Shown piece by piece: positions 23,567 to 63,852 of a stretch of 64,000 nucleotides of DNA. Source of the DNA: Candidatus Dojkabacteria bacterium (GTDB lineage Bacteria; Patescibacteriota; Dojkabacteria; B142; OLB20); assembly GCA_030583785.1 (NCBI GenBank), contig CP129475.1:25941-89940 (forward strand), written 5' to 3'. The position numbers and the translations under genes are program-made. Each line of letters starts with the position of its first letter. The stretch's first letter is position 1. A model generated the notes under the pieces. That model saw only the letters and a program-made list of their open reading frames with translations. It was not told where the DNA came from and made no database searches.

Positions 23567-26251
23567 ATGAAAAACGATTCAATCTTTGCGAAAATTAGTA
23601 CAGCTTTTGTTGGCAGATATCGACTCACAATACTTGCCTTTATTGGAATATTTGTACTTGGTGTGGTCTCATATGCAGTTCTCCTTAAAAGAGAAGGATT
23701 CCCAGCAATAGCCATTCCAGCAGCATTCGTTCAAGTTAATTATTTCGTTAACGATGCTACACTTGTAGATCAAGAAATTACAATTCCAATTGAATCGGTA
23801 TTAGTAAATATTGAGGGTGTAGAAAAAGTTAACTCATTCACAACAGATAATTTCGCCAGATTTACCGTAAGGTTTGCAGATGGCTTTACATCTGAAACCG
23901 GATCTGAAAAGCTAAAGAATGTTATTGCCAGAGATGCTAGTCTTCCAGACTCTGCTGCTGTAATATACCAAGTAATAAATGCCGCAGCTATTGATGGCAG
24001 AAACGATCTACTACTTTCTGTCGGTGGCGATTTCAATTTAGACGAGCTCACTAGCAAGGCAGAACTAATCCGTGATGCACTCGCAAATAATCCTCTACTT
24101 ACCAAGGCAGAGGTTCAGTACCTTACTGCCAAAAACATTAATCCATTCAATGGCGAAGAGGTAGAAATTGTCACAGGTTTTAACCGTATTGGCTCTCAAG
24201 TTGATGGCGAACTTGTGTTTTATCCAGCTATTAGTATAGGTGTTAATAAAAAATTCAATGACACAGGTACACTTGAACTATCAAATGCCGTTAGGTCAGA
24301 GGTAGAAAAGCTCATCGAAGATGACAAATTGGAAGGAGTCATTATTTCCTACGGAGGTGACTTCGCAGACGGCCTTCTTAAACAAATTGGATCACTTGAA
24401 TCTAATGTTATTACAGGGCTATTGGCTGTTATTGTTGTTCTTGTTCTTTTCATTAACTGGAGAGCGGCAATTGTCACTGCGATTTTTATTCCCACAGTAT
24501 TAGCTGCAACATTCGTAGGTCTTTATGTTATTGGTTACAGTTTAAATGTCTTATCACTCTTCGCTTTAATTCTGGTACTAGGTCTTTTTGTCGATGATGG
24601 TATTGTTATTGTAGAGGCGATCGATGCAGAAAAAAAGAAAGGTGTAAAGGGAGTAAAGGCCGTCTCCAACGCTTTAAATTCTGTTGGTCTAGCGGATGTT
24701 TCAGGAACAGTAACTACATTGTTAGTTTTTCTGCCAATGGCAGCGATATCTGGAATCCTGGGCGAATTTATTAGGCTAATTCCAATTACAGTTATATTAG
24801 CTCTTTCACTTTCGTTAATTATTGCTTTAACAATTGTTCCTTTGCTTTCTCAGATTATGCTGGTCGGAAAAACCAAGTCAAAAAGTGCACTCAGTAAAAC
24901 AGCTCACCTAATATTTTATGGGTTCAGTGATCTTATTCTTAAACTTGGTAAATTAACGGGTAGCTTTGTTCGCTTCTATTTGGCAACTCCGGTCTTAACG
25001 ATAATTGTTATGGTTATTGCCTTACTGTCCGTGGCTTTAGGCATTAACTATGCAGGTATGCTTAAATTCTCTATCTTTCCCACTCCTAAAGATACAGATA
25101 GTATGCTGATAACTATTTCTTATCCAGAGCAAACATCTATCGACGCTGCAGAAACAATTGCAATAGATGCCGAAGCACAAATCAAACAAGTTGCTTCTGC
25201 AGATATCGAAAAGATAACTTACCTTAGGTCAAATGCATCTTCAGCAATAATGATTGTCGATCTAACACCAGTTGGAACTAGAGACACCGCAGAAGTAATT
25301 GCAGAAAGACTTGACGACTTATTCTCTCAGCTTGACGGTGCTGATTTCAAAGTAGAGCTTTCTAGTGCCGGACCACCAAGTAGTGACTATCCATTCGCTA
25401 TGCAAATCTTTTCCGATGATCAAGAAGTTCTTACTCTTGCATCAGCTAAATTGGCAGATTTCATCAAAGAATATGATCTCGAAACAAATTCTGTTACAGA
25501 TGTAAAAGTCGACAATCTATCTTTGCTTGCAAAAATCGATGGCAGAAGGTTTGTAGAAGTTAAAGCCAGACTATCTGATTCTGAAAATTCAGCCTCACTT
25601 GTAGAACTACAAGATGCAGTTGTTGCAGAATATAACGAAAACAATCTTTCCGATCTTGGTCTTACTGCCAATTCATTAGAATTTGATTTTGGGCAGGAAT
25701 CGGAAAACCTATCCTCATTCGGATCGGCTTTACTGGCTATGTTACTCGCCCTCCTAATTATGTATGGATTATTAGTTCTTCAGTTTAATTCTTTCCTGCA
25801 GCCGTTTCTTGTCTTTCTTGCTATTCCTTTCAGTTTCGCAGGACTATTCTTTGGCCTTTACACAACCAACAACCCACTCAGTTTCTTTGTAGTTATTGGC
25901 ATGACCGGTCTTATAGGTATTGTTGTTAATAACACAATCATGCTGTTGGATTATGCTAACCAAATGATTAAAAGCGGGGCGTCAGCGAAAGAAGCAATAT
26001 CCGAAGCTGTGGCTGTTAGATTCCGCCCTCTGCTTGCCACTTCTGTTACTACTTTGGCAGGACTTCTTCCACTTGCACTCAGTGATCCTTTCTGGGAGCC
26101 ATTATCCTTAACAATTATATTTGGATTGATGTCCAGCACAGCTCTTGTAATTACAACTTTCCCAGCATTTTTTGCTGCCGCAGAATGGTTAAGAGCTCTC
26201 AAGCGAAGTCTCTTCAAGCGAACCGGCGTGTCGTCACTTTTACAAAATTAA
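23567..26251 (+). CDS. RND-superfamily transporter permease (AcrB/MMPL-like)
   Basis: 894 aa. The N-terminus is AcrB-like: one TM, then a periplasmic/extracytoplasmic loop (FPAIAIPAAFVQVNYFVNDATLVDQEITIPIESVL). It shows the internal 12-TM duplicated architecture, and the conserved TM4/TM10-like segments are present. Confidence 0.6.
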   Translation: MKNDSIFAKISTAFVGRYRLTILAFIGIFVLGVVSYAVLLKREGFPAIAIPAAFVQVNYFVNDATLVDQEITIPIESVLVNIEGVEKVNSFTTDNFARFTVRFADGFTSETGSEKLKNVIARDASLPDSAAVIYQVINAAAIDGRNDLLLSVGGDFNLDELTSKAELIRDALANNPLLTKAEVQYLTAKNINPFNGEEVEIVTGFNRIGSQVDGELVFYPAISIGVNKKFNDTGTLELSNAVRSEVEKLIEDDKLEGVIISYGGDFADGLLKQIGSLESNVITGLLAVIVVLVLFINWRAAIVTAIFIPTVLAATFVGLYVIGYSLNVLSLFALILVLGLFVDDGIVIVEAIDAEKKKGVKGVKAVSNALNSVGLADVSGTVTTLLVFLPMAAISGILGEFIRLIPITVILALSLSLIIALTIVPLLSQIMLVGKTKSKSALSKTAHLIFYGFSDLILKLGKLTGSFVRFYLATPVLTIIVMVIALLSVALGINYAGMLKFSIFPTPKDTDSMLITISYPEQTSIDAAETIAIDAEAQIKQVASADIEKITYLRSNASSAIMIVDLTPVGTRDTAEVIAERLDDLFSQLDGADFKVELSSAGPPSSDYPFAMQIFSDDQEVLTLASAKLADFIKEYDLETNSVTDVKVDNLSLLAKIDGRRFVEVKARLSDSENSASLVELQDAVVAEYNENNLSDLGLTANSLEFDFGQESENLSSFGSALLAMLLALLIMYGLLVLQFNSFLQPFLVFLAIPFSFAGLFFGLYTTNNPLSFFVVIGMTGLIGIVVNNTIMLLDYANQMIKSGASAKEAISEAVAVRFRPLLATSVTTLAGLLPLALSDPFWEPLSLTIIFGLMSSTALVITTFPAFFAAAEWLRALKRSLFKRTGVSSLLQN

Positions 26252-32503: not shown

Positions 32504-35500
32504 TTGAAAACCATAAAAAAAATATTTGCAGTTATCGGAATCTTGCTAATAGCAGGGGTTTCAGTTTTAGTTATTGCAAACCTTTCACAAGACCTTTCAC
32601 CAGAACAGAGTAGTGCAAATTTTGAATATGGCTTGATTGCAAAACAGAAGTCTGAATCCAGTCAAATTAAATTAACAACTGGTGATAGGGTGGATGTAGA
32701 AGTCCTCATGCTTGCTCCACAATCTGATCAGGGCAATCCAGAATCTGCTGAGGTAGTCATAGAATATAATCCTTCTCAATTGGAATTTGTAGAGATTTCT
32801 GAAGCAAGCGATGTATTAATGATTGGTCCAGAGAGCGATCCGACTAGAGGTCGCATCATCGTTGATTTTGTCAAACAAGGTCAGGGTGGATTTGTTGGGG
32901 ATAGTCTAAACCTAAAACTATTAGCAACGGCTTCTTTCACTCTTCGCTCCTCGGAACTTGATAATGTAAAAATCTCCTTTTCATCTGACTCAAAAGTAGG
33001 GGATAAAATGATTTCGCAATTAAATGCTGACGAAGAATTTAGTGTTGTTGTCTCAGGTAGTCTCCCTGTTTGTGGTAATAGCAATTGTGAATCAGGAGAA
33101 ACACTAATATGCCCACAGGACTGCAAAACAGTACCTACCCCATTAGCCAATAATATAAATACTCCTGAAGTAGATCCTAAATGCTCAGAGCTTGGCATTA
33201 ACTATGCTTCAGTTGTTCCGGTTGGAGACAATTGGCACGAGAAGGCTCAAAGCCTTGGTATGGGTTATACCCTAGAGATTGTAGGCAATTCTGAACAAAA
33301 ACTGGGTGTATTGCAGTCATTTCGTGCAGCAATGGCTAGAGGATTAACGCCAATTCTTCGTATATGTTATGGAAGTTATTGTTCATTTTCAAATGTTAAT
33401 ACATACATCAACTTTGTTAATGATCTAGCAGATGAACTAGCAAATGATGGAACTTTCTATATAATAGCAGGGCCGAATGAACCGTTGTCTGAGAATTGGT
33501 TGGGGAATATTGTTGGTGATCCAATATCTACGGCACAAAAAATAACACCATACATGAATGCTGTAATCGATGGTGTAAGTAAACCTAATGTTAAAATCCT
33601 CTCACCGGTTTTTAATACTACTAACGATAATTTTCCTTTTCTGGTTAGTGAGATGAAAATGCGAGGAGCTAAATTCAATCAACTAGATGGTATTGCTGGC
33701 AATGCATATAATCTTAAAGGCTATTCACTGGGTGAAACCCTTTCAGATTTCGTTACCAGAATGCGTGCCCAAGGCTTTTCTGCAAATGATATATATTTAA
33801 CTGAAGTAGGAGCATTTGAATCAGATAAAAATAATGGATGGACAGGTACAAAAGTCCCTCATCAAGAAGCCTTGCAGAATCTTCGTAACGAAATAGTAAA
33901 GCTTAGAAATGATAATAAAGTGAAAGCATATCTGTTGTTTAACTCTTTTGGGACAAATTCCGATTCCAATTTTGACTATAATGTCTTCTCTGATGATGAG
34001 TTAAATTATCTGGTTGGACCAGAATGTGTTAATGAAGATAATTCTCCATCCTCGACTCCCACAGCCACACCGTCGCCAACTATATCTAGCGTTCCTTTAT
34101 GTCGATATCTTTCAACTCAAGCAAGAGTCCAACGCTCGGTTACTGAACCTTGGGTTGATAATCTAGAGATAAGTTGTGAGGAAAGCTTTTCTGTCGGGTC
34201 GTTTCATGATAATAACGGTCAGTTTGCAAATGATACAATCATTAATGTCATCGATCCTCAAAACAGGACAAGTAATCTTAAGAACGGAGATAGCTTCAGG
34301 ACATCTGTCCCAGGCGACTATCGAGTTGTTGTAACTACAAACGGACAAGAAGGTGTAAATTGCCGAGATGAAGCAAAAGTAAGCTGCTCAAGCACCACAA
34401 CTCCGACACCCTGCCCAATAGAGCCAGTATGTTCAGCAGGTTATGATTTAGTAACGATACCACCATTTGATGGAGTCGGCTGTACAGTTTATGAATGTGT
34501 ACCTAGTTCAACAACTTTGACCTGTCAATCAGACAGATTTGTCGATAGCTTTTCTGCCCAGGGGATTAATAATTTTATCTGGAAAACAAGCGAAAAAGGT
34601 GGCGTAAGAACCGCGAATGGACATCTGTTAATCTCTGTTCCTTCTGGATCTTTTCAAAATAACTATGTAGAGACTAGATCTTTCATGCAAGGGAATTTTC
34701 AAATAACTGCTGATATCGTTGGACTTTCCACAGATTATAAAAATAGTGGAACTGCAGAATTAGGAGTAGGAAGTCCACTTGGACATGCGCACCTAGGCTT
34801 GAATCAAGGACACGATGGAAAACAATATCTCGAAGCGAATATTAGAATTGGTGAAAATTGGCTGGGTTCTAAGACATTAGATTTGGGTAATGTAAAACCA
34901 CCTGTGAAACTAATAATCTCTAGGTTCGGATCAACAGTATCTATGAGTGCAGAATATGGGGGAACTACCAAGCAAGTTGCAATTTTCAATAATGTTTACC
35001 TAGGGAATGTAAATGCTCAGCTTTACTCGTTTACAAAAGATGACAATCCAGCTATTAATGCAGCGTTTGATAATTACACTTATGGATGTTCTTCTGATCC
35101 CGGCTCGGTTACGGGTGTTCCAACTCCGGTTCCACCAACGCCACGACCAACTTGCCCAGTTGATCTAAAGGTCTGTCCTAGTGGATTTACAGTTAGTAGA
35201 GATCCATTTAATAACTGCGAATTCCGAACCTGTCCAATTGTGAGTTCAGTTTGCGGTAACAATATTTGCGAGACTGATGAAGAAATTAACAAATCTTGTT
35301 CTATTGATTGTGCACCAACAGTTACCCCGACTCCGACTCAGGCTCCAAAATGTACCTCGCATGAATATACACAGTGGTCTGAATGTATTAATGGATACAG
35401 AACTCGTAAATTGATATCTTCTTTACCAGAAGGATGTAAGCAGGGAGTTAGTCCAATTTTCGGCGAGGTCTGTGGTTCTGGATCATTAATATGCACCACA

Positions 35501-35983
35501 GATACAAAAGCATGTGATGACGGGACATGGGTTAGCAGGGATCCTTCAAACAATTGTGAATTTATGCAATGTCCAGGTCAAACAGAGTGTGTACAGCCAC
35601 CAGCTTGTGCAAATCCTGGGCCTGGTGAAGCAAGATGTTATCTCTCTCCAGAAACAAATTGGTGTAGCTTGGAATGTGAACCTATTCCTGCTTGTGCATT
35701 GGATTCGGCAGAACAGAGATGTTCTTTAGCTCCAGGTGTCAATTATTGTCAAGCTTTAGACCAAAATAGCGTAGACGAAAAGACAGCTAATGCCTGTAAG
35801 GCGGATTATGATGGCAATGGAACTATAGATATTAATGATTTTGCAGTATTTGCAAAAAATTACAAAAAAGAGAATATCGATTGTTCGCTGGACATTGTTA
35901 ATAATGACTGCAAACTGGATATCTCTGATTTTAGATTATTAGGATACATTTATGGTCAAGAAAATGCTTGTAAGAACAATTAG
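32504..35983 (+). CDS. Large secreted multi-domain protein: N-terminal anchor/signal, GH clan-A (GH5-like) domain, S/T/P linkers, beta-sandwich (ConA/LamG-like) domain, three Cys-rich repeats, C-terminal dockerin
   Basis: N-terminal TM KIFAVIGILLIAGVSVLVIA. IIAGPNEPLSENW (GH5 acid/base NEP) and ~110 aa later IYLTEVGAF (GH5 nucleophile TE.G). Linkers NSPSSTPTATPSPT, SSTTTPTPCP and TPVPPTPRPT. Dockerin duplicated Ca-binding loop DYDGNGTIDINDFAVF ... DIVNNDCKLDISDFRLL. Confidence 0.6.
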   Translation: MKTIKKIFAVIGILLIAGVSVLVIANLSQDLSPEQSSANFEYGLIAKQKSESSQIKLTTGDRVDVEVLMLAPQSDQGNPESAEVVIEYNPSQLEFVEISEASDVLMIGPESDPTRGRIIVDFVKQGQGGFVGDSLNLKLLATASFTLRSSELDNVKISFSSDSKVGDKMISQLNADEEFSVVVSGSLPVCGNSNCESGETLICPQDCKTVPTPLANNINTPEVDPKCSELGINYASVVPVGDNWHEKAQSLGMGYTLEIVGNSEQKLGVLQSFRAAMARGLTPILRICYGSYCSFSNVNTYINFVNDLADELANDGTFYIIAGPNEPLSENWLGNIVGDPISTAQKITPYMNAVIDGVSKPNVKILSPVFNTTNDNFPFLVSEMKMRGAKFNQLDGIAGNAYNLKGYSLGETLSDFVTRMRAQGFSANDIYLTEVGAFESDKNNGWTGTKVPHQEALQNLRNEIVKLRNDNKVKAYLLFNSFGTNSDSNFDYNVFSDDELNYLVGPECVNEDNSPSSTPTATPSPTISSVPLCRYLSTQARVQRSVTEPWVDNLEISCEESFSVGSFHDNNGQFANDTIINVIDPQNRTSNLKNGDSFRTSVPGDYRVVVTTNGQEGVNCRDEAKVSCSSTTTPTPCPIEPVCSAGYDLVTIPPFDGVGCTVYECVPSSTTLTCQSDRFVDSFSAQGINNFIWKTSEKGGVRTANGHLLISVPSGSFQNNYVETRSFMQGNFQITADIVGLSTDYKNSGTAELGVGSPLGHAHLGLNQGHDGKQYLEANIRIGENWLGSKTLDLGNVKPPVKLIISRFGSTVSMSAEYGGTTKQVAIFNNVYLGNVNAQLYSFTKDDNPAINAAFDNYTYGCSSDPGSVTGVPTPVPPTPRPTCPVDLKVCPSGFTVSRDPFNNCEFRTCPIVSSVCGNNICETDEEINKSCSIDCAPTVTPTPTQAPKCTSHEYTQWSECINGYRTRKLISSLPEGCKQGVSPIFGEVCGSGSLICTTDTKACDDGTWVSRDPSNNCEFMQCPGQTECVQPPACANPGPGEARCYLSPETNWCSLECEPIPACALDSAEQRCSLAPGVNYCQALDQNSVDEKTANACKADYDGNGTIDINDFAVFAKNYKKENIDCSLDIVNNDCKLDISDFRLLGYIYGQENACKNN

Positions 35984-47176: not shown

Positions 47177-48889
47177 ATGAAGTATTCCCAACTATTCGGA
47201 AAACCGAAAAAAGACGCTAAAGCTTACGATACAAAGAACGCCACTTATCTAATCAAAGGCGGATTCGTCGATCAAACCATGTCTGGGGTGTATAAATATC
47301 TCCCGCTAGGCTTAAAGGTGCTCAATAAGATTGAACAAATTGTTCGCCAAGAAATGGATAAGATCTCACAAGAAATGCTTCTCAGTGCCTTATCTCCTCG
47401 TGAACTATGGGAAACAACAAATCGAGCCGAAATTGATGTGCTTTTTAAAGTCAGAGGTGCCAATGAAGCGTCGCGAATGCAAAATGACAGTACATATATT
47501 CTTAATCCAACTCACGAAGATAATATTACTCCGCTTGTGCAAAGGTTTGCCAAGAGTTATAAAGAATTCCCAATTGCCTTGTATCAAATTCAGAACAAAT
47601 TCAGAAACGAAGCAAGGGCAAAATCAGGGGTGCTTAGAGGTAGAGAATTCCGCATGAAGGATTTATATAGCTTTCATACAAACCTTGAAGACCTAATGGA
47701 CTATTACGAAATAGCCAAGCAAGCCTATGTTAGAGTATTTGAAAGACTAGGAATAGGTGACTCTACAGTTATTGCTCTTGCTAGTGGAGGCGATTTCACT
47801 GAAAACTATTCTCACGAATTTCAAACCTTCTGTGATGCCGGCGAAGACACAATCTTTTTTGATGAGACAGAAAACATCTGGTACAACAGAGAGGTCACAC
47901 CTGCAAAAGCACCAGCTTATAAATACGATACAGAAATGAAGCCTCGTAAGGATGTATTTGGCGAAAACATCGTAAGTGTAGAAAAGTTAGTTGAGTTTCT
48001 AAAAATCCCCATTGAAACAACTATTAAAACCCTGATCTACACATCTAAAGATCAAATCTATGCAGTAGCAGTTCGCGGTGATTACGAGGTAGATGAAGGA
48101 AAACTTAAAAAGGTGACAGGTAAGAAAGATCTGCAACTTGCAGATGCCAAAACAATAAAACAGATTACTGGCGCAGAAGTGGGCTATGCGGGTATTCTTG
48201 ATTTACCAGAATCTGTAGAAGTGATCTGCGACGAAGCTCTATCTGACATGGTCAACTTCGAAGTTGGTGCCAACAAAACAAACTATCACACGGTTAACGC
48301 CAATTGGGGAAGGGATATCACAAAACCAAGTCAATTCTTCGATATCAAAGTTGCCAAGGATACAGATCTCAATCCAAAAACAGGTAAACCTTACCAAATC
48401 AAGAAGGCAGCTGAGGTGGGGAATATCTTTCCTCTCGAAACAAAATTCTCAAAAGCCTTCAATTTTAAATATGTCACAGATAAAGGTAAAGAAGAATTTG
48501 TCTATATGGGAAGCTATGGCATAGGTACAACCAGACTTGTAGGAGTTATTGCAGAAATTATGAGTGACGATAAGGGTCTTGTCTGGCCTAAACAGGTAGC
48601 ACCGTATCAGGTGCATTTAATTTCACTTGGTAAGAAATCAGAAGAATCTTATCTGAAAGCAGAGGAACTATATCAAAACCTTAAAAGCAAGGGTATAGAT
48701 ATCCTTTGGGACGATAGAGAGGACGCCAGCGCTGGTGAAAAGTTTGCAGATGCAGATCTAATTGGTGTTCCGACTCGACTTGTCTTAAGTAAAAAAACTC
48801 TAGCAGCAGAAAGCGTTGAGCTTAAACAAAGAACTGATAACGATTCAAAAATGGTTAAGTTAGATCAGATTCTCGAATTTGATTTTTAA
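47177..48889 (+). CDS. proS: Prolyl-tRNA synthetase (bacterial type)
   Basis: The N-terminus MKYSQLFGKPKKDAKAYDTKNATYLIKGGFVDQTMSGVYKYLPLGLKVLNKIE is canonical ProRS. Class II motifs 2 and 3 and the anticodon-binding domain are present, and the 570-aa length fits. Confidence 0.85.
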   Translation: MKYSQLFGKPKKDAKAYDTKNATYLIKGGFVDQTMSGVYKYLPLGLKVLNKIEQIVRQEMDKISQEMLLSALSPRELWETTNRAEIDVLFKVRGANEASRMQNDSTYILNPTHEDNITPLVQRFAKSYKEFPIALYQIQNKFRNEARAKSGVLRGREFRMKDLYSFHTNLEDLMDYYEIAKQAYVRVFERLGIGDSTVIALASGGDFTENYSHEFQTFCDAGEDTIFFDETENIWYNREVTPAKAPAYKYDTEMKPRKDVFGENIVSVEKLVEFLKIPIETTIKTLIYTSKDQIYAVAVRGDYEVDEGKLKKVTGKKDLQLADAKTIKQITGAEVGYAGILDLPESVEVICDEALSDMVNFEVGANKTNYHTVNANWGRDITKPSQFFDIKVAKDTDLNPKTGKPYQIKKAAEVGNIFPLETKFSKAFNFKYVTDKGKEEFVYMGSYGIGTTRLVGVIAEIMSDDKGLVWPKQVAPYQVHLISLGKKSEESYLKAEELYQNLKSKGIDILWDDREDASAGEKFADADLIGVPTRLVLSKKTLAAESVELKQRTDNDSKMVKLDQILEFDF

Positions 48890-49368
48890 TCTTCTTCCTG
48901 ACCGTCACCTTCGTATCTTGAAGGATCACTGTCATCAGCTTGATTTGGTGTGGACGGTTCATTTGTTCCGCCTTCGGGAACTGTTTGTTGTCTAACCCTA
49001 GACTCATAGAGTTCTTGTTCAGCTCTTTTTAATTCTTCTGCATCTTCAATGTTTTTTTCCAGCTCAGGAGAGCCTACATCGAGCATGGTTCCAAAGAAGG
49101 AAAATTGCACACGGGGATCGTTTTCCCAGTCTTCTCGACCTGTTAGGGTTCTAAAGTAATCATCAATATCTGCCAGATCCTCTTTAGTAGGAGTATTGTT
49201 AAATCTGACATCATAACTATTTGTCTGTTGCGAGAGCGTAATTTTGTAACTTTCTTTTTCGATGACGATAACTTCTCTGGTTGCCAGAAGGTAGACAACG
49301 ATAACAACAAACAATAGAAACACACCAATAATAAATATCCTTTTAAAGTTAATTGCGTTAATTTTCAT
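48886..49368 (-). CDS. Membrane-anchored protein with an acidic C-terminus, hypothetical
   Basis: N-terminal TM IFIIGVFLLFVVIVVYLLAT. The C-terminal 40 aa are rich in D/E/Q. It overlaps the proS stop by 4 nt on the opposite strand. Confidence 0.4.
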   Translation of the reverse strand: MKINAINFKRIFIIGVFLLFVVIVVYLLATREVIVIEKESYKITLSQQTNSYDVRFNNTPTKEDLADIDDYFRTLTGREDWENDPRVQFSFFGTMLDVGSPELEKNIEDAEELKRAEQELYESRVRQQTVPEGGTNEPSTPNQADDSDPSRYEGDGQEED

Positions 49369-49385
49369 AAAGAATCATTAATAAA

Positions 49386-52300
49386 CTATTGTCCCATCTC
49401 TGCGCAGGACGAACCGAACAATTGACATATTACTTCGTTAGGTACAGTCGGCTTCTTCGCTTTTCTGGAGAAATCGTTGTCGTTCAAAATACCACTTGCT
49501 CCGTAACAGTATCTTTTTCCATCGGCTGCAGTAGCTAGATTGCTCGATGCGTTCCAGCTATGGGCGAATGTACTAACATGAGATGATCCCGTTGCCGTAG
49601 ACGGAGGTGCAGCTGCATTGCAGCCAAGCAACTGTCCATATAGTAAATAAGGATCGACATCCATCTCAACACCATTGTGTGTGTAGTTGGCTAGTATATG
49701 AATATGAGCATTATTAACCGAGTAAACTCCGCCTTTAAAGTTACCATCTTTATCGGATTTATTGACAGTAACATATCCGATCAATTGCCCGACATTTACT
49801 TCTTTACCTTCAGCAGCCTCTGGTAATCTTCTGTTAACTGCTAAATGCTGAATGTGGTACTTGATTCCAGACCTTCCCTGCAAAATTATGATATCGCCGT
49901 AACCACCATCGTACCTGCGAAGAATTCTGCCGGCCTCTGGTGCAACAACTCGAAGTTTGGCATCAGATAAATCTGGGTTAGGATCACTATCTGAATTAAT
50001 TGGCCATGGATTTAAGTCTATCGGCAGTCCTCTGTTTTGGAAATGTGTAAACCATCCATAAGGACCCTGAAAACAAGAGTGTCCCGCTGGTGATGTCATA
50101 GGGCAGGTTGTGCCGGGTGCTCTTCCTGTAATAGGAGTTTCTATGTCAGTTCCCGGTCCTTCTTCAACTAAACATTCAATAACAGTAGCATCTGTCAAAT
50201 TGTCTCTAGCCCAAGTACCCAGTCTCGCTACATTTTCACAATAGGCCTTACCGTTGCAACTGGCTCGGTTATAGTACCAGGCACGGCCTGCGTAGACCAT
50301 GTCATTTGCAGTCCAAGATTCAGCTGGAATATAGTCAGGGTAGGCAACACCATCGTAAAAGTTGCGTTGAAATCTTGCTGCTTCTCCAAGATCTATTGCT
50401 GTGGCGCATATAACATCACCAATTCTGTGGCGACTAAAATTGTTTTTGTAGTAATCTCTAAGTGCAGGATCAGCTACATTGTCGTAGTATGTTCCGCCAA
50501 CTTGACCGGGTATTTCTTGCCCTCTACTTCTATCGACACCAAGAAAGTCCATACATGCTTCAAGAAGCTCTCTAGTGTTATCACGATCACCGGGACGACT
50601 CCATAATGGTCTGTTATCGACTATTCTTTTAAATCTTTCTGGCATATGCTGTCCGAGTCCTTTGCCATATGTATCTACGGGATGAGCATCTGCCCAAAGT
50701 GTTAATTGATTCGGATCGCCACCACAGGTATCAGCAAATATTGTATAGTCAGGCGCATCACTTTTAATAGTTTGCACAGTTACTCTGCCTCGATACCATT
50801 CTGCATAGGTGTCAACACATCTATGTCTTGTCTCAAAATTAAATATGGTCCAAGGAATATACCAAGGTATTCTAGAGCCTCCTCCTTGTGAATTGATAAA
50901 ATTAACTGCTTTTTGAACTAAGCTGGTGAAGTCATCACCTGATCCAGGGATTAGAGAACAACATTCGTCTGCAGGGCTAACCGGATCGATAGGTGAAGTT
51001 GATCCTGTTGCCGATAAGAGTATGGTAGCCGGATCGATGTAGTCCCTTCCACCTGCTGCGGTCTCTTTATACAGAGTGAAATGAAGGTGTCGACCTGTTG
51101 AGTTACCGGATGTACCCATAATTCCGAGTTTTGTACCTTTTGTTATTGTTGAGTTTAGTTTTACACCGCTTTCTACGGTTGCCAAATGAGCATAAAGGCT
51201 ATATACAGAGCTTCCATCGGTGAGTACATGTTTGATTTTTATATAGTTGCCATACCCTGAGCCACATGTGCTTCCTACAGATCCCTGAGCAGGGCAATTA
51301 TCAACTTTGTCTACTACTGTGCCGTCTGCAACTGCAACAATAGAAGGATCGCTATTATTAATTGTTACAAGATCTACACCGTTATGGTATTTACCAAGTT
51401 CTGGGTAATTATAATTTGTTGGACCAGTATATCCCCCAGAAATCTGATAACCGCCATTTCTAAACTGATTCACACAGGTGTTATATACAGTCTGACTATC
51501 TGTCGCTCCATAACAGTGAGACATAATAATCGAACCTTTTGCTGCTACCAATGGGCTACCAAAATCTTCAAGATTAACCTGCGGAGCTGGTTTTCCACCT
51601 GTTGCAGGATTAATGCATTGGTTTATTCCAGGTACAAAATTACTTGTTCTTGGTTGTTTAAATCCTCCACCAGAAGTTAACGGATCGGTTGTCCTATCCG
51701 CAAAAAGCCATTCCTCTAGTGGATCTACTTCACTTTGATCTCTAGCAATACAATCACATTGACCTTTGGGACTTCCGTCTGGACAATCACAATCACAAAA
51801 ATCGATAATAATCTTACCAGTCTCGGTATTTCTAAGATTTAGAGATCCGCACTGTGCTTCGCGAACATTCTTGAATGATTTTCCTGTGTCGTAAGTGTCG
51901 ACATTTGTGAGAAAAACACTTATTCTTTCAAGCATTCTAGGGATTTGTCCAAGCCAAGGATAATAGTAATACAGATCTACTGCGGATACATCTTTTTCTT
52001 CACCCAGAGGATCAATAAACTTTGCCAAACGATAATCTCCTTCGTAGACAGGAAGATATTTTTCTGGCTCAGAAAGATTGCTAATATATTCTCTAAGAAA
52101 ATGATCGGGTATGTTTTCGATATCAAAATCTGAATCTGGGTTTTCAAATAGCTTTAAGTTATATTTAAGAACCTCAGCCAATAGGTCACCCTCAAGTCTT
52201 TTAGCTGGATCGTATGAAGATCGGTTATTTTTGGTGTAGTCAGATTTGCTCTGAGTCATTTGCAGGTCATAGACTCTAAGCCCCCATTCAGTTGTTAATC

Positions 52301-54956
52301 CAGAGTTAACATTATGAATGATTTTGTATGGACTGTTGATTCTTTCCAGTTGGTATACTAGGTATAGGTATCTTGACAGTCCTATTAAATCGGTTGCCTG
52401 ATAACCATTTCTTACCCAGCGCATATGTGGGTCACCACCTACCGAATCGACTTGCTTGTTGAGTCCTCTGCAAGCTCGATAAATGCTGTCAATACTTGTT
52501 GAACAAGTTGTTTGAACTCCGCAAATGTCTACAAAAGGAATGACTTCACCGCTCCAAGGAACTGTATCTCCGGGACAGAATGAGACAGAATACGAGCTTC
52601 CCGGAGCTTGTCTGGAAACTCTGGACACGAAGCCGGCCGTAATTGCATCTGGATAGGATTCTCCGCCGGGGAGATCATAGTATTCGCGAAGTCTGTCATT
52701 TTGATCTGGTAATTGACATCTAGCTCCAGTAGTTTTTATCTGAACTTGTCTATCGTTCTCTTGAACTTGGACAGCAATTCCAAATTGAGCATCGCAAAGT
52801 TGGTTTTCGGTAATTTCGTAATTCCAATCATCTTCGATCAAGTATTCATATGGACCAGAGGTGTCGTCGTTGACAAACTTCATCGATTTTCCGTCTAGCT
52901 GTCTAAAGCTATTAATTCCCTTACCTGGAATTCTGGAGCAGTATATTTCGTCGGGGATTGTCTCTCCTTCGACATTTGCTCCTTGAGAAAAGAAACTAAA
53001 CAGTTTTTTAAGAAAACTAACCAGCACATTGTCGTTAATGTTTTCTGGGGCAAGTGTAGCTCCACCTGCATTTTTTAAGTTCTGTGTTGATAAAGGATGT
53101 ATGCGCATATCGAAAGTATCTATGGGATCAGATACTACTTCGTTCCAGCTAAGGATTCCGCAAGCCGAAGCGCCACCAAGAAGAGGTGTTTTAATATTTA
53201 CAGCACTTGATTCATTAGTACGAATAAATCTTGCCAGACCAGGAAACTCACTGGTAAAGAAGAGCTCAAAGGGAGATTGGGTCCCGTTCGTTTTTTGATA
53301 TAGATAATATGGATGAGTAATGTTTCTAAAACTTAAGGTTTTACAATAAGGAGTGTAGGGATTAGCATCAGTTTTCTCTGATGTTGCTAGAAATGAGATG
53401 AGAGGGAATTCACGCATTCCTCCGGTATATGCAAATCCTGCAGTCCAGTTTTTTTCATCTGCACAAATTTGCTGATAAGGTTTACTGTCAGCGCTGTTAG
53501 TCTGGAATCCAGTTGGGTGATTCGGATCACATGAGTTAAGATCAAGCCAAACTTGAAGTTTACCATTAGGCGATAAAGATTCTCGTTCGGTATCTGAGCT
53601 TTGTAAGAGTAAACCATTTATTGTTTTTGGTTGTACTTCACAACTTCGCATTGTCCAATGTGTAGGCAGTTCGAGATGTTCTGCTGTTTGCGGGTCAACC
53701 TGTGCAGCAATGCTCAGATCTTTTGGTTGAGGTAGTTCACGGATATTACACGCCCCAAGAGGACCAAAAATTTGAGCTATGGCATTATCGTCAAGTTCTA
53801 GATTTGACCAGGGGGTTCCATCTGGCAATGTACGATCTCCTCCTTGTCCGAATGCATTAAAGAATAAGGCGAAAACAATTCTTCCGTTTTCTGCTATTGC
53901 CCTCACTTCTTCTGCAAGCATAGAATAGTCTTTCAAAAAATTGCCCATCTCGTTGATTCCCCAAGGCTTACTGTCAGTAAAGACTCTGCCGGCAAGGTCT
54001 ATTGCGGCCATAACATTAGATTCTGGTTGTGTTGGGATTCCGGAATATACATTGAAGGTCCACATGTCTACATGATCATTACCACCGGCATCAACAAACT
54101 TTTGATGACCTTCTGTAAAGATTGCTCCACCATCGGCAAAAATATTGTATGTCGGACCAGAAATTACAATATTTGCAGCATGATCAGATCTCCTGACAAC
54201 TTCGGCAAAACAACGATGAAAATCTGCAGCTTTTGTGAAACGATCCATCATAGGTGTATTCACATTCCCTAGAAACCAGGATTCTGAATTGATCTCGTTT
54301 AGTGGTGCAGCAACAAACTTAATTCCTGGTGCTTGATCTGCAACTTCTAAAGTTGCATTACCTGCTGCTCGCCCTGCACTACAAGCATCTGTAATACCAG
54401 CCGTTCCAACTTTGATTTCGCAATCGGGCGGTAGGCCTCTTTCTCCGTCAACTCTGCCATCGCTTCCTTGATTTGTATCTCCATAACAATACCTATATAC
54501 GCCTGTCAGACCACTTGTTTTCAATGCTTCTGATGCAACCCCTGAGTGAACTGGTCCTTGTAGAGTATGAAGATAATACTTCATGCCCCATTCCAAGATT
54601 TTTCCGTAGTTATCGCTTTGTAGCGGTTCAGTTAGTAAGTTGACGCCAAATTTATCGCAAACAGCTACAGCTCCGTCATTGCTACTTGGAGTCCCTGTCG
54701 GAGATGTGGTTGGATTTGCCTGAGCAATATTTTGTTGCAGGATTCTGGCAATAATGCTTTCTTCACTACCAATAAGTCTTTCTGGTTCAATTTCATTTCC
54801 AGAAAAGGAATCATTGCCAATCGATATTGTTGTTCTAGTGATTGAGAATAATATTCCAAAAGCGGCAACAGAAACTACCACAACTAGCATTAAAGCCTGT
54901 GGTCGTTTATATAGTTCAATTAAAGCCGTTTTAATCTTCAGCAATGTCATCTGCAT
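49386..54956 (-). CDS. Giant (1856 aa) membrane-anchored surface protein with a GH clan-A-like region and two M23 (LytM-type) peptidase domains
   Basis: N-terminal TM LMLVVVVSVAAFGILFSI. AAPLNEINSES and ~110 aa later WGINEMGNF (a clan-A acid/base and nucleophile-like pair). First M23: YHNGVDL...YAHL...GRHLHFTLY (HxxxD...HxH) at nt ~51060-51420. Second M23-like: GYGDIIILQGRSGIKYHIQHL...NNAHIHILA at nt ~49680-50100. Cys-rich segments are present, including CDCDCPDGSPKGQCDC. Confidence 0.6.
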   Translation of the reverse strand: MQMTLLKIKTALIELYKRPQALMLVVVVSVAAFGILFSITRTTISIGNDSFSGNEIEPERLIGSEESIIARILQQNIAQANPTTSPTGTPSSNDGAVAVCDKFGVNLLTEPLQSDNYGKILEWGMKYYLHTLQGPVHSGVASEALKTSGLTGVYRYCYGDTNQGSDGRVDGERGLPPDCEIKVGTAGITDACSAGRAAGNATLEVADQAPGIKFVAAPLNEINSESWFLGNVNTPMMDRFTKAADFHRCFAEVVRRSDHAANIVISGPTYNIFADGGAIFTEGHQKFVDAGGNDHVDMWTFNVYSGIPTQPESNVMAAIDLAGRVFTDSKPWGINEMGNFLKDYSMLAEEVRAIAENGRIVFALFFNAFGQGGDRTLPDGTPWSNLELDDNAIAQIFGPLGACNIRELPQPKDLSIAAQVDPQTAEHLELPTHWTMRSCEVQPKTINGLLLQSSDTERESLSPNGKLQVWLDLNSCDPNHPTGFQTNSADSKPYQQICADEKNWTAGFAYTGGMREFPLISFLATSEKTDANPYTPYCKTLSFRNITHPYYLYQKTNGTQSPFELFFTSEFPGLARFIRTNESSAVNIKTPLLGGASACGILSWNEVVSDPIDTFDMRIHPLSTQNLKNAGGATLAPENINDNVLVSFLKKLFSFFSQGANVEGETIPDEIYCSRIPGKGINSFRQLDGKSMKFVNDDTSGPYEYLIEDDWNYEITENQLCDAQFGIAVQVQENDRQVQIKTTGARCQLPDQNDRLREYYDLPGGESYPDAITAGFVSRVSRQAPGSSYSVSFCPGDTVPWSGEVIPFVDICGVQTTCSTSIDSIYRACRGLNKQVDSVGGDPHMRWVRNGYQATDLIGLSRYLYLVYQLERINSPYKIIHNVNSGLTTEWGLRVYDLQMTQSKSDYTKNNRSSYDPAKRLEGDLLAEVLKYNLKLFENPDSDFDIENIPDHFLREYISNLSEPEKYLPVYEGDYRLAKFIDPLGEEKDVSAVDLYYYYPWLGQIPRMLERISVFLTNVDTYDTGKSFKNVREAQCGSLNLRNTETGKIIIDFCDCDCPDGSPKGQCDCIARDQSEVDPLEEWLFADRTTDPLTSGGGFKQPRTSNFVPGINQCINPATGGKPAPQVNLEDFGSPLVAAKGSIIMSHCYGATDSQTVYNTCVNQFRNGGYQISGGYTGPTNYNYPELGKYHNGVDLVTINNSDPSIVAVADGTVVDKVDNCPAQGSVGSTCGSGYGNYIKIKHVLTDGSSVYSLYAHLATVESGVKLNSTITKGTKLGIMGTSGNSTGRHLHFTLYKETAAGGRDYIDPATILLSATGSTSPIDPVSPADECCSLIPGSGDDFTSLVQKAVNFINSQGGGSRIPWYIPWTIFNFETRHRCVDTYAEWYRGRVTVQTIKSDAPDYTIFADTCGGDPNQLTLWADAHPVDTYGKGLGQHMPERFKRIVDNRPLWSRPGDRDNTRELLEACMDFLGVDRSRGQEIPGQVGGTYYDNVADPALRDYYKNNFSRHRIGDVICATAIDLGEAARFQRNFYDGVAYPDYIPAESWTANDMVYAGRAWYYNRASCNGKAYCENVARLGTWARDNLTDATVIECLVEEGPGTDIETPITGRAPGTTCPMTSPAGHSCFQGPYGWFTHFQNRGLPIDLNPWPINSDSDPNPDLSDAKLRVVAPEAGRILRRYDGGYGDIIILQGRSGIKYHIQHLAVNRRLPEAAEGKEVNVGQLIGYVTVNKSDKDGNFKGGVYSVNNAHIHILANYTHNGVEMDVDPYLLYGQLLGCNAAAPPSTATGSSHVSTFAHSWNASSNLATAADGKRYCYGASGILNDNDFSRKAKKPTVPNEVICQLFGSSCAEMGQ

Positions 54957-63030: not shown

Positions 63031-63852
63031 TTGCTTATGGCAAGAAGGTTTTCTGTAAAAATTCCCGTGAGTAGAAGGCGACCACTTAAGTCTCTTGCCA
63101 AAAAAGATTGGCGACCGATTTTGATTCAAATCAAAGCTAAAGTAGTGCTTATCGGTAAGAAACTTCGTGGCACAATTCTTGGTAAGTCGGCAAATATTCT
63201 TGAGCTTGTAAAAAATAATCCGAAAAAAGCCAAAATAGCAGGATTAACAATATTATCTGTCGTTATTATTCTGTTTGTTGCATATATCTTTTTCGATAGG
63301 AACACCGTTAAAGTTGTGATTGGTGAGCCCGAGATAATCACTTTCTCAACAGATGAACCAGAAGAAGCTATACCTTCAGGTAATTACACATGGATCGGGC
63401 GTGAAATTGATCCTAAGTATATTAACCTGCCAACAATATCAAGGTCTGGGTATATTCAGCATGTCGGAGTAGACCAGAATAATCAAATCGCTGTTCCCTC
63501 AAATGTTTTTATCGCCGGCTGGTTTGTAAATACAGTCAGACCAGGACAGAAAGGACTAAGCATTATAGACGGACATGTAGATGGTCCTACTCGAGAAGGG
63601 ATTTTTCATAGGTTAGAGGAACTTCAGATAGACGATACTTTCGAGATTATTCTAGGCAACGAAACTGTCTTAAATTATCGGGTTCTTGAGGTAAAAACTG
63701 TTCCTGTTTCGGAAGCTGAAAAACACCTGTTTGAACAGAAACTCGATGTCGTCAGCCAGTTAAACTTAATAACTTGTGGCGGCAATTACAACCGTGAATC
63801 CAGAACCTATGAAGGCAGAGTTATAGTTATGGCTCAACTGATGGGTAATTAG
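63031..63852 (+). CDS. Sortase (transpeptidase)
   Basis: N-terminal TM KIAGLTILSVVIILFVAYIFF, catalytic His region LSIIDGHVDGP, the TLXTC active-site motif in QLNLITCGGNY, and the conserved Arg in EGRVIVMAQL. Confidence 0.65.
   Translation: MLMARRFSVKIPVSRRRPLKSLAKKDWRPILIQIKAKVVLIGKKLRGTILGKSANILELVKNNPKKAKIAGLTILSVVIILFVAYIFFDRNTVKVVIGEPEIITFSTDEPEEAIPSGNYTWIGREIDPKYINLPTISRSGYIQHVGVDQNNQIAVPSNVFIAGWFVNTVRPGQKGLSIIDGHVDGPTREGIFHRLEELQIDDTFEIILGNETVLNYRVLEVKTVPVSEAEKHLFEQKLDVVSQLNLITCGGNYNRESRTYEGRVIVMAQLMGN

What the first reader, a model, noticed from the sequence alone, without database searches (positions are those of the whole stretch)
49386..54956. 1856-aa membrane-anchored protein combining a clan-A glycosidase-like region with two M23 peptidase domains
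A single N-terminal TM tethers an enormous extracytoplasmic protein. After a Thr/Pro/Ser linker comes a region with an NE...NE(M)G catalytic-pair signature (aa ~215 and ~330). Two M23/LytM-type peptidoglycan endopeptidase domains follow: HNGVDL...HLHF around aa ~1200, and a second with HIHI at aa 1751-1753. Several Cys clusters, including CDCDCPDGSPKGQCDC, suggest metal or disulfide sites. Both glycan- and peptide-cleaving activities on one surface protein fit an enzyme that digests a host cell wall. That would matter for an obligate epibiont, and it could also be a self-wall remodelling enzyme. It takes up nearly 9% of the window.
Basis: partly seen in the sequence, partly recalled or inferred. 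Interest (0 to 1): 0.55.

Follow-up and report, generated by a model that had tools for sequence, protein, structure and literature searches.

The report
Giant membrane-anchored multi-enzyme cell-wall hydrolase
This is a real 1856-residue surface protein of an uncultured Dojkabacteria (WS6, candidate phyla radiation) bacterium. It strings at least three, probably four, wall-cutting enzyme modules around a large conserved core of unknown fold, which makes it a good candidate tool for opening a cell wall, either a host's or its own.

Summary
One N-terminal membrane anchor is followed by these modules:
- A ~670-aa Cys-rich core, aa 411-1085, with no detectable relative outside this family.
- A canonical M23 endopeptidase, aa 1190-1299 (Pfam E=1e-22).
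- A divergent second M23-like domain, aa ~1615-1770. It keeps HxH, the central His and the Asp but lacks the canonical HxxxD His. It scores below the Pfam threshold; hhalign gives 92%.

An exhaustive search of 1.84 billion representatives found only 19 relatives. All are large multidomain proteins; those that could be traced are Dojkabacteria. They sit at one conserved housekeeping locus, with permuted modules and swapped wall-hydrolase accessory domains. Databases label the protein only "M23 metallopeptidase". The biochemical class is well supported. The target (host or self) is inferred.

The parts
49386..54956 (-). Whole gene: 1856-aa membrane-anchored multi-hydrolase (stop codon 49386-49388)
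   Evidence: ORF listing. A 99%-identical protein is on 18 contigs. NCBI WKZ28050.1 is in the same 90% cluster.
54837..54899 (-). N-terminal signal-anchor/TM helix, aa ~20-40, preceded by K/R-rich aa 7-18
   Evidence: Only hydropathy peak in the protein. Every full-length homologue read also has an N-terminal hydrophobic segment.
54672..54836 (-). Juxtamembrane linker, aa 41-95, including the T/P/S-rich stretch at aa 80-92
   Evidence: Read from the sequence. Only the 99%-identical P0001 matches it.
53727..54671 (-). Clan GH-A-like (β/α)8 glycosidase module, aa 96-410. Candidate acid/base is N220-E221; candidate nucleophile is E336.
51702..53726 (-). Family-defining Cys-rich core module, aa 411-1085, of unknown fold. 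Conserved motifs: NWTAG(F/Y), IIHxxN(V/I)G, YDLQ, GQIPRMxER. Contains the CDCDC...CDC cluster at aa 1054-1069.
   Evidence: Present in all 19 relatives. 70 residues are conserved in at least 12 of 14 sequences. No Pfam or PDB sequence match.
51012..51416 (-). Canonical M23 (LytM-type) metalloendopeptidase domain, aa 1181-1315. Key residues: H1191, D1195, H1257, H1290, H1292.
   Evidence: PF01551 E=1e-22, 80.5 bits against a cut-off of 28.7. PDB M23 chains match at E down to 3e-9. Motif positions.
50169..50939 (-). Lysozyme/lytic-transglycosylase-like all-α module, aa 1340-1596. Invariant E1375. Conserved G1433..Q1436 and R1509-x-R-x-G-D1514-x-x-C-A.
49647..50114 (-). Second, divergent M23-like domain, aa ~1615-1770. 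Retains D1647, H1704, H1751, H1753. No His at D-4; the candidate replacement is the invariant C1618-P..G-H1626-S-C1628.
   Evidence: PF01551 at 25.7 bits, E=1.3e-5, below the 28.7 cut-off. Alignment with the C-terminal domains of P0004-6. hhalign against the family's M23 profile gives probability 92.3%, E=5e-7. No PDB sequence hit.
49389..49646 (-). C-terminal tail, aa 1771-1856, with 4 Cys. No relative other than the same-species protein.
   Evidence: phmmer module map.
48886..49368 (-). Downstream 160-aa ORF with an N-terminal TM and acidic C-terminus, 17 nt after the giant gene. Possible partner or regulator; its membership in the system is tentative.
   Evidence: A 155-168-aa ORF sits immediately downstream in L005 (1-nt gap) and L006 (4-nt overlap). 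Similarity is only 17-23% in alignment and undetectable by BLAST. No Pfam match.

Best explanation
The gene encodes a type-II-anchored, extracytoplasmic multi-enzyme wall hydrolase of a Dojkabacteria (WS6) bacterium. One N-terminal helix holds it in the cytoplasmic membrane, and the other ~1800 residues lie outside.

Shown at domain level:
1. A clan GH-A TIM-barrel glycosidase module with an intact NE/E catalytic pair.
2. A canonical Zn-dependent M23 endopeptidase, which should cut peptidoglycan peptide cross-links.
3. A divergent second M23-like domain.
4. A ~670-aa disulfide-rich core that is the family hallmark.

Supported by a predicted fold only:
5. A lysozyme/lytic-transglycosylase-like module with an invariant Glu (E1375), which would cut the MurNAc-GlcNAc backbone.

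Inferred mechanism: the peptide-cutting and glycan-cutting modules act together on one patch of peptidoglycan. The GH-A barrel removes a non-peptidoglycan wall or capsule polysaccharide that shields that patch; in orthologues, NAGPA, amidase, GH25, VanY, M14 or SGNH modules may play comparable accessory roles. The core acts as a scaffold or as the target-recognition part.

Inferred target: the envelope of a neighbouring (host) cell at the contact site. The reasons are that the protein evolves faster than its neighbours and shuffles and swaps its hydrolase modules between orthologues, as host-interaction proteins do. The small membrane ORF immediately downstream may restrain or position the enzyme.
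For: - Anchor: single hydropathy peak at aa 20-40.
- M23a: Pfam E=1e-22; PDB M23 hits; all five catalytic residues present.
- M23b.
- Guilt by association: 17 of 18 relatives carry M23, and the other Pfam domains found are nearly all wall hydrolases (Amidase_2, GH25, VanY, M14, NAGPA, GDSL).
- Vertical inheritance at one locus, GT4-ClpC-PCMT-[giant]-small ORF-ProRS-SSB.
- Faster divergence than the flanks: 27% identity against 36-70% for neighbours in L005/L006, and 54% against 60-75% in L007.
- Module order is permuted between orthologues.
- The organism is Dojkabacteria. Cultivated members of this radiation are obligate epibionts, and giant surface proteins and wall hydrolases have been proposed as host-attack tools (PMC8080830).
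Against: - No activity has been measured.
- M23b lacks the canonical first zinc ligand and was not modelled, so it may be a non-catalytic LytM-type regulator.
- The query's own GH-A module hits no Pfam family, and its substrate is unknown.
- A membrane tether and a conserved housekeeping locus fit a self-wall autolysin equally well.
- No host is known, and nothing in the window links the gene to a contact apparatus.
- The downstream ORF shows no detectable sequence conservation.
Confidence: 0.5

Rival explanations
1. Self-wall remodelling enzyme. It would be a housekeeping autolysin that splits the bacterium's own septal peptidoglycan, or opens local gaps for pili or type IV secretion machinery. 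This is comparable to the membrane-anchored multi-hydrolases of Gram-positive conjugation systems (VirB1/TrsG-type SLT+CHAP proteins; PrgK-type LytM+SLT+CHAP, the latter from my own knowledge).
For: - N-terminal membrane anchor.
- Found at the same housekeeping locus in every related genome recovered.
- The M23 plus lysozyme-like combination resembles space-making hydrolases. [quoted passage not shown]
- A sortase in the window indicates a Gram-positive-type wall that needs such remodelling.
Against: - Architecture turns over extensively between orthologues: module permutation, a NAGPA/M23b swap, and gain of GH25, amidase, VanY, M14 and GDSL modules. That is unusual for a housekeeping autolysin.
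- It diverges faster than its flanks.
- The genes annotated near it include no T4SS or pilus genes; many window ORFs were not annotated.
- A GH-A barrel has no obvious role on the cell's own peptidoglycan.
Confidence: 0.3
2. Nutrient scavenging. A surface-bound depolymerase complex digests free cell-wall debris and exopolysaccharide in sludge or biofilm, supplying amino sugars and peptides to an auxotrophic cell. No specific host would be attacked.
For: - Combination of polysaccharide-, glycan- and peptide-cleaving modules.
- Carboxypeptidase-type modules (M14, VanY) in relatives would trim released peptides.
- Relatives P0008-P0015 carry an extra cysteine-containing module upstream of the core that looks CBM-like by eye (untested).
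Against: - No linked transporters or downstream catabolic genes in the flanks.
- A single-copy tethered enzyme is a poor way to harvest diffuse substrate.
- Same lack of activity data.
Confidence: 0.12
3. Mainly an adhesin or structural surface fibre. Its hydrolase-like domains would be degenerate binding modules, in the way LytM-type EnvC/NlpD domains bind and regulate rather than cleave.
For: - M23b lacks the canonical HxxxD His.
- The largest part of the protein (the core, aa 411-1085) has no enzymatic signature.
- Giant surface proteins of CPR bacteria have been proposed as attachment devices.
Against: - M23a keeps all five catalytic residues.
- The GH-A NE/E pair and the Glu of the lysozyme-like module are invariant across relatives that are only 18-40% identical. 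That argues for retained catalysis.
Confidence: 0.05
4. Prophage-derived virion-associated lysin or tape-measure-like protein.
For: PHROG matches to endolysins, tape-measure and minor head proteins. PDB match to phage Gp16.
Against: - All those matches cover only the M23 domain at aa ~1170-1330.
- The flanks are ProRS, SSB, ClpC, PCMT and GT4, with no phage genes, and they are syntenic across diverged genomes.
- Base composition is not clearly atypical: GC 0.39-0.42 across the gene against 0.37-0.42 elsewhere in the window.
Confidence: 0.02

Closest known systems
Peptidase family M23 (LytM, lysostaphin, MepM/ShyA; Pfam PF01551)
   Same: Domain aa 1190-1299 scores 80.5 bits against a cut-off of 28.7. 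It has HxxxD, the central His and HxH.
   Different: It is embedded in a protein about ten times larger, with a Cys-containing insertion (C1221, C1231). The second copy (aa ~1615-1770) is below the threshold and lacks the HxxxD His. A distant upstream His (H1626) could substitute, as I recall for the M23A/LasA subfamily, but this was not tested.
Clan GH-A glycoside hydrolases. The nearest curated family is Pfam PF11790 Glyco_hydro_cc, which I recall corresponds to CAZy GH128. The best structural neighbours are GH53, GH26, GH1, GH39 and GH5, plus the Psl exopolysaccharide hydrolase PslG.
   Same: (β/α)8 barrel. Asn-Glu after β4 and Glu at the end of β7 are invariant. Sister modules in P0010, P0015 and P0007 pass the PF11790 threshold.
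   Different: The window's module matches no Pfam or PDB sequence profile. It has a disordered Cys-containing insertion (model residues 64-93). It has NEI instead of NEP. Its substrate is unknown. It occurs only in these giant proteins and in a few standalone 360-450-aa proteins, one of them labelled Dojkabacteria.
Lysozyme-like superfamily: family-1 lytic transglycosylases (Slt70, MltC/E/F; GH23), phiKZ gp144, and the T6SS muramidase effector Tse3
   Different: No SLT Pfam or PDB sequence match, even by profile. Foldseek finds nothing. Only about half of the 257-residue module superposes. The conserved SRxRVGDxxCA helix and the Cys pattern have no SLT counterpart. In the window protein the GxxQF element reads GLGQHM.
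Membrane-anchored multi-hydrolases of Gram-positive conjugation systems (TrsG/VirB1-like SLT+CHAP; PrgK LytM+SLT+CHAP, from my own knowledge) and phage virion-associated lysins that combine M23 with a transglycosylase
   Same: N-terminal anchor plus M23 plus a lysozyme-like module in one chain. The logic of cutting both glycan and peptide bonds locally is the same.
   Different: No T4SS or phage genes among the annotated neighbours. No CHAP domain. It is several times longer. It has a GH-A barrel and a 670-aa core that those proteins lack.
Giant membrane/surface proteins of CPR bacteria (for example the 1392-4163-aa proteins of Vampirococcus lugosii)
   Same: Very large, membrane-associated, in a reduced-genome CPR organism, and proposed to mediate host interaction.
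   Different: Those are described mainly as interaction or adhesion proteins. This family is built from hydrolase modules, and an exhaustive search found only 19 cluster representatives; those that could be traced are Dojkabacteria.

Membership tests
Peptidase M23 (PF01551) - first domain, aa 1190-1299 | Score above the Pfam gathering threshold | tested here: met
   80.5 bits against 28.7, E=1e-22. PDB M23 chains match at E down to 3e-9.
Peptidase M23 (PF01551) - first domain, aa 1190-1299 | Zinc and catalytic residues: HxxxD, central His, HxH | tested here: met
   H1191/D1195, H1257, H1290/H1292. Invariant in the family alignment A5.
Peptidase M23 (PF01551) - first domain, aa 1190-1299 | Endopeptidase activity on peptidoglycan cross-bridges | not testable with these tools
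   Needs a zymogram or muropeptide analysis.
Peptidase M23 - second domain, aa ~1615-1770 | Score above the Pfam gathering threshold | tested here: not met
   25.7 bits against 28.7 (E=1.3e-5) when scanned alone. No PDB sequence hit.
Peptidase M23 - second domain, aa ~1615-1770 | Profile-level homology to M23 | tested here: inconclusive
   hhalign of A4 against the family's M23 alignment A5 gives probability 92.3%, E=5.4e-7 over 58 columns. This drops to 53-77% when the alignment is forced to extend.
Peptidase M23 - second domain, aa ~1615-1770 | HxxxD and HxH zinc-binding motifs | tested here: not met
   HxH (H1751/H1753), the central His (H1704) and the Asp (D1647) are present. The residue at D-4 is Gly. 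The candidate substitutes H1626 (invariant) and H1638 were not placed structurally.
Peptidase M23 - second domain, aa ~1615-1770 | M23 β-sheet fold | not tested
Clan GH-A glycoside hydrolases | (β/α)8 barrel fold | tested here: met
Clan GH-A glycoside hydrolases | Acid/base Glu (in Asn-Glu) after β4 and nucleophile Glu at the end of β7 | tested here: met
   N220-E221 follow strand 119-122 of the model, and E336 ends strand 237-242. Both are invariant in 11 sequences at 18-41% identity.
Clan GH-A glycoside hydrolases | Membership of a curated GH family by sequence | tested here: inconclusive
   The window's module matches no Pfam family and no PDB profile below E=0.2. Homologous modules in P0010, P0015 and P0007 pass PF11790 at 26.6-32.6 bits against 21, and hhalign links the subtypes at 99.6%.
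Clan GH-A glycoside hydrolases | Glycosidase activity and substrate | not testable with these tools
   Needs enzyme assays on candidate polysaccharides.
Lysozyme-like / family-1 lytic transglycosylase (GH23, Pfam SLT PF01464) | Lysozyme-like α-helical fold | tested here: inconclusive
Lysozyme-like / family-1 lytic transglycosylase (GH23, Pfam SLT PF01464) | Catalytic Glu at the C-terminal end of an N-terminal helix | tested here: inconclusive
   E1375 is invariant in 13 sequences and lies at the end of helix 27-37 of the model. Its superposition on the catalytic Glu of Slt70/MltF could not be inspected.
Lysozyme-like / family-1 lytic transglycosylase (GH23, Pfam SLT PF01464) | Sequence-profile match to SLT | tested here: not met
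   No Pfam SLT hit in any of 13 members, nor in P0017. No PDB sequence hit with profile A3.
T4SS-associated wall hydrolases (VirB1/TrsG/PrgK type) | Encoded within or next to a type IV secretion gene cluster | tested here: not met
   The neighbours are GT4, ClpC, PCMT, ProRS, SSB, DedA-like, RNase J and HD proteins.

The most novel reading that the evidence does not exclude
The ~670-aa Cys-rich core (aa 411-1085) could be a new fold that recognises or opens a host envelope. In that reading, the giant protein and the tiny membrane ORF downstream form a lineage-specific attack/self-protection pair, analogous to an effector-immunity pair. Dojkabacteria would use it to breach host cell walls at the contact site, retuning it to different hosts by shuffling hydrolase cassettes. 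Besides the M23 domains, the cassettes seen are GH-A, lysozyme-like, NAGPA, GH25, amidase, VanY, M14 and SGNH.
Probability: 0.2. Interest if true: 0.75.

Novelty: new variant of a known kind. Interest (0 to 1): 0.5.

Why it matters
How ultrasmall CPR bacteria open the envelope of the cells they live on is largely unknown, and Dojkabacteria have no cultivated representative that I know of. This protein and its 19-member family offer a concrete, testable candidate. It is a single surface-tethered chain predicted to cut peptide cross-links, glycan strands and an accessory polysaccharide. It sits at a fixed locus, and its module content varies between species.

Two of its catalytic modules are invisible to standard profile annotation, and the largest conserved part has no known relative. 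Public databases therefore describe it only as an "M23 metallopeptidase". Even if it proves to be a self-wall autolysin, it would define divergent GH-A-like and lysozyme-like families and an unusual case of module permutation between syntenic orthologues.

Tried and rejected
- Whole-protein and per-segment Pfam, NCBIfam and PHROG scans detected only M23.
- Profile searches of PDB sequences gave nothing significant for the GH-like (A1), lysozyme-like (A3), M23b (A4) and core (A7) alignments, nor for M23b alone.
- The word-indexed homologue search returned only 3 relatives for the full protein. With alignments A1 and A3 it failed to return known family members. Family size therefore rests on the exhaustive search.
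- The afdb50 fold library was unavailable.
A narrower alignment found one genome, WS6 OLB20.
- The prophage/tail-lysin reading was rejected on context.
- No internal repeats were found by self-BLAST.
- Promoter and terminator scans were at chance level.
- The CDCDC cluster as a universal metal site was rejected as unsupported, because it is conserved only in the closest clade.
- Forcing hhalign to extend M23b over the HxxxD region gave only low-confidence columns, so it does not settle the first zinc ligand.
Full report
**1. Observation**

The minus-strand ORF 49386..54956 (ATG start, 1856 aa) is exactly as reported. Hydropathy shows one strong segment only, at aa ~20-40, preceded by Lys/Arg residues. 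A single N-terminal signal anchor with a very large extracytoplasmic body is therefore the straightforward reading.

All quoted motifs are present:
- NE at 220-221 and NEMG at 335-338
- HNGVD at 1191-1195
- HLHF at 1290-1293
- HIHI at 1751-1754
- CDCDCPDGSPKGQCDC at 1054-1069
- 44 cysteines in total

The gene is real. A 99%-identical protein is found on 18 metagenome contigs up to 445 kb. The same 90% cluster contains NCBI WKZ28050.1, from a 1.17-Mb Candidatus Dojkabacteria contig, and fragments from WS6 bacterium OLB21. These are annotated only as 'M23 family metallopeptidase' or 'peptidoglycan DD-metalloendopeptidase family protein'.

**2. Family and context**

An exhaustive phmmer search with aa 90-1180 against 1.84 billion cluster representatives gave only 19 proteins with E<=1e-3. 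Most are 1100-2570 aa; two are short fragments of 155 and 687 aa.
- Those with names are Dojkabacteria.
- A scan of GTDB species genomes found one locus, in candidate division WS6 bacterium OLB20.
- The word-indexed search behaved erratically for this family and is not used for counts.

In the window, in two diverged metagenomic relatives (L005, L006) and in OLB20 (L007), the giant gene sits at the same place. The order is GT4 glycosyltransferase, ClpC, PCMT methyltransferase, [giant], small ORF, ProRS, SSB. It is therefore a vertically inherited chromosomal gene, not a prophage or island gene.

It diverges faster than its neighbours:
- 27% identity against 36-70% for the flanking proteins in L005 and L006.
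- 54% against 60-75% in L007.

Module order also differs between these positional orthologues. The window's aa 101-403 module lies N-terminal to the core. In P0002, P0003, P0008 and P0011 it lies C-terminal to it. The C-terminal domain is an M23-like domain in the window's clade but a NAGPA phosphodiester glycosidase in P0002 and P0003.

**3. Module by module**

(a) aa 96-410, GH-A-like barrel.
- No Pfam or PDB sequence hit for the window's copy.
- An 11-sequence alignment (18-41% identity) has invariant N220, E221, E225, P268, N271, D297, Y304, E336 and G338.
- AF2 on a 6-sequence alignment gave pLDDT 76 and pTM 0.81, with eight β/α units. NE falls immediately after β4, and E336 falls at the end of β7.
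- A second subtype of the same module occurs in P0009, P0010 and P0015 and in standalone 360-450-aa proteins, one of them named Dojkabacteria. hhalign links the two subtypes at 99.6%, E=1e-23.
- The P0010 and P0015 copies, and the barrel fragment at the start of P0007, exceed the gathering threshold of PF11790 'Glycosyl hydrolase catalytic core'.
- Substrate is open. From general knowledge, peptidoglycan glycosidases belong to lysozyme-type or GH73-type folds, not GH-A. A non-peptidoglycan wall, capsule or matrix polysaccharide is the more likely substrate (inference).

(b) aa 411-1085, core.
- Present in all relatives.
- In a 14-sequence alignment, 70 residues are conserved in at least 12 sequences. 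They include at least nine Cys and the motifs NWTAG(F/Y), IIHxxN(V/I)G, YDLQ and GQIPRMxER.
- No Pfam, PHROG, NCBIfam or PDB sequence similarity.
- The CDCDC cluster is conserved only among the closest relatives. Only the final CDC recurs in distant ones. Together with the extracytoplasmic location, this suggests disulfides rather than a universal metal site (inference).
- Fold and function are unknown.

(c) aa 1190-1299, first M23 domain.
- Canonical M23: PF01551 E=1e-22 and PDB M23 chains at E down to 3e-9.
- H1191, D1195, H1257, H1290 and H1292 are all present and invariant in the family alignment.

- A 13-sequence alignment shows an invariant Glu (E1375), a conserved G..QF element and an SRxRVGDxxCA element.
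- AF2 gave pLDDT 76.7 and pTM 0.85, all-α.
- Against this, Foldseek found nothing below E=1, and no SLT profile or PDB sequence matches.
- I treat it as a probable lytic transglycosylase or muramidase-like module (about 70%).

(e) aa ~1615-1770, second M23-like domain.
- Scanned alone, it hits PF01551 at 25.7 bits, below the 28.7 cut-off, E=1.3e-5.
- It aligns with the C-terminal domains of the closest orthologues P0004-6. Invariant features are C1618-P, G-H1626-S-C1628, YDGG, H1704 and the first His of HxH.
- hhalign against the family's M23 profile gives 92.3%, E=5e-7.
- It keeps the Asp (D1647), the central His and HxH, but has Gly where the HxxxD His should be.
- An upstream His might substitute. 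I recall such longer spacing in LasA-type M23A enzymes, but did not test this. Catalytic competence is unresolved.

**4. What the relatives add**

Across 18 relatives, Pfam finds M23 in 17. It also finds NAGPA (4), Amidase_2 (2), Peptidase_M14 (2), GDSL/SGNH (2), PF11790 (2), GH25 muramidase (1) and VanY (1). Apart from the GH-A and NAGPA modules, whose substrates are unknown, these accessory domains belong to families that act on peptidoglycan or (SGNH) can modify it. That is strong circumstantial evidence that the whole family is a modular wall-degrading device.

**5. Mechanism**

Shown: the domain identities above.

Inferred: a membrane-tethered chain brings an endopeptidase, a glycan-strand cleaver and a polysaccharide hydrolase to one patch of wall. 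The core acts as scaffold or recognition unit.

For the target, I lean towards a neighbouring host cell (about 0.45-0.5). The reasons are cassette shuffling, faster divergence, and the epibiotic lifestyle known for cultivated CPR bacteria, in which wall hydrolases and giant surface proteins have been proposed as host-interaction tools.

A self-wall role (division, or space-making for pili or T4SS) is a serious rival at about 0.3. It fits the anchor and the housekeeping locus, and the Patescibacteria T4SS study notes that VirB1-type hydrolases are often missing next to the T4SS. Scavenging, pure adhesion and phage origin are less likely.

The 160-aa TM protein encoded 17 nt downstream has a positional counterpart in L005 and L006, with a 1-nt gap and a 4-nt overlap respectively. 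It shows no detectable sequence conservation. A partner or immunity role is speculation.

**6. Comparison and novelty**

Multi-domain wall hydrolases that combine M23 with a transglycosylase are known, for example phage virion lysins and Gram-positive conjugation hydrolases. The kind is therefore known.

New here:
- The size and the combination with a GH-A barrel.
- Two catalytic modules too divergent for profile annotation.
- A 670-aa conserved core without relatives.
- Restriction to a very small family, Dojkabacteria wherever traced.
- Module permutation between syntenic orthologues.

I found no description of this family in the searched literature.

Verdict: a new variant of a known kind, of moderate interest (0.5).

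Noticed in passing
window 32504-35983 (+): A second large ORF (1159 aa) with no Pfam family at E<=1e-5. It is another orphan large protein in this small-genome organism.
   Followed up: no
window 48886-49368 (-): A 160-aa ORF with an N-terminal TM and acidic tail, 17 nt downstream of the giant gene. A similarly sized ORF abuts or overlaps the giant gene in L005 and L006, but there is no BLAST-detectable similarity. It may be a partner, regulator or immunity protein.
   Followed up: partly
window 63031-63852 (+): A sortase-domain protein (PF04203, E=1e-13). This implies covalent anchoring of surface proteins to a Gram-positive-type wall. The giant protein itself has no LPxTG-like C-terminus.
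   Followed up: no
window 23567-26251 (+): An 894-aa protein matching the AcrB/RND transporter family (PF00873, E=1e-97). This is notable in a presumably monoderm CPR genome.
   Followed up: no
L007 4977-10765 (WS6 bacterium OLB20, JYNZ01000002): The orthologous giant gene is split into three consecutive ORFs (1109, 183 and 687 aa) in this MAG. This points to frameshifts or assembly errors. The last fragment (P0017) carries a VanY domain at its end.
   Followed up: partly
P0002/P0003/P0008/P0011 against the window protein (L005 5964-12395, L006 6588-13364): Positional orthologues have their modules in a different order: the GH-A-like barrel comes after rather than before the core. Their C-terminal domain is also different: NAGPA instead of the M23-like domain.
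   Followed up: yes
P0008-P0015 (relatives, upstream of the core module): Several relatives carry an extra ~250-aa module (pattern ...GSFE...W...HG..Y.K.F...G.C...TFWDG.F) that looks like a carbohydrate-binding module by eye. It is absent from the window protein.
   Followed up: no
tool behaviour: The word-indexed homologue search missed most members of this family, even when queried with alignments containing them. The exhaustive search found them.
   Followed up: yes
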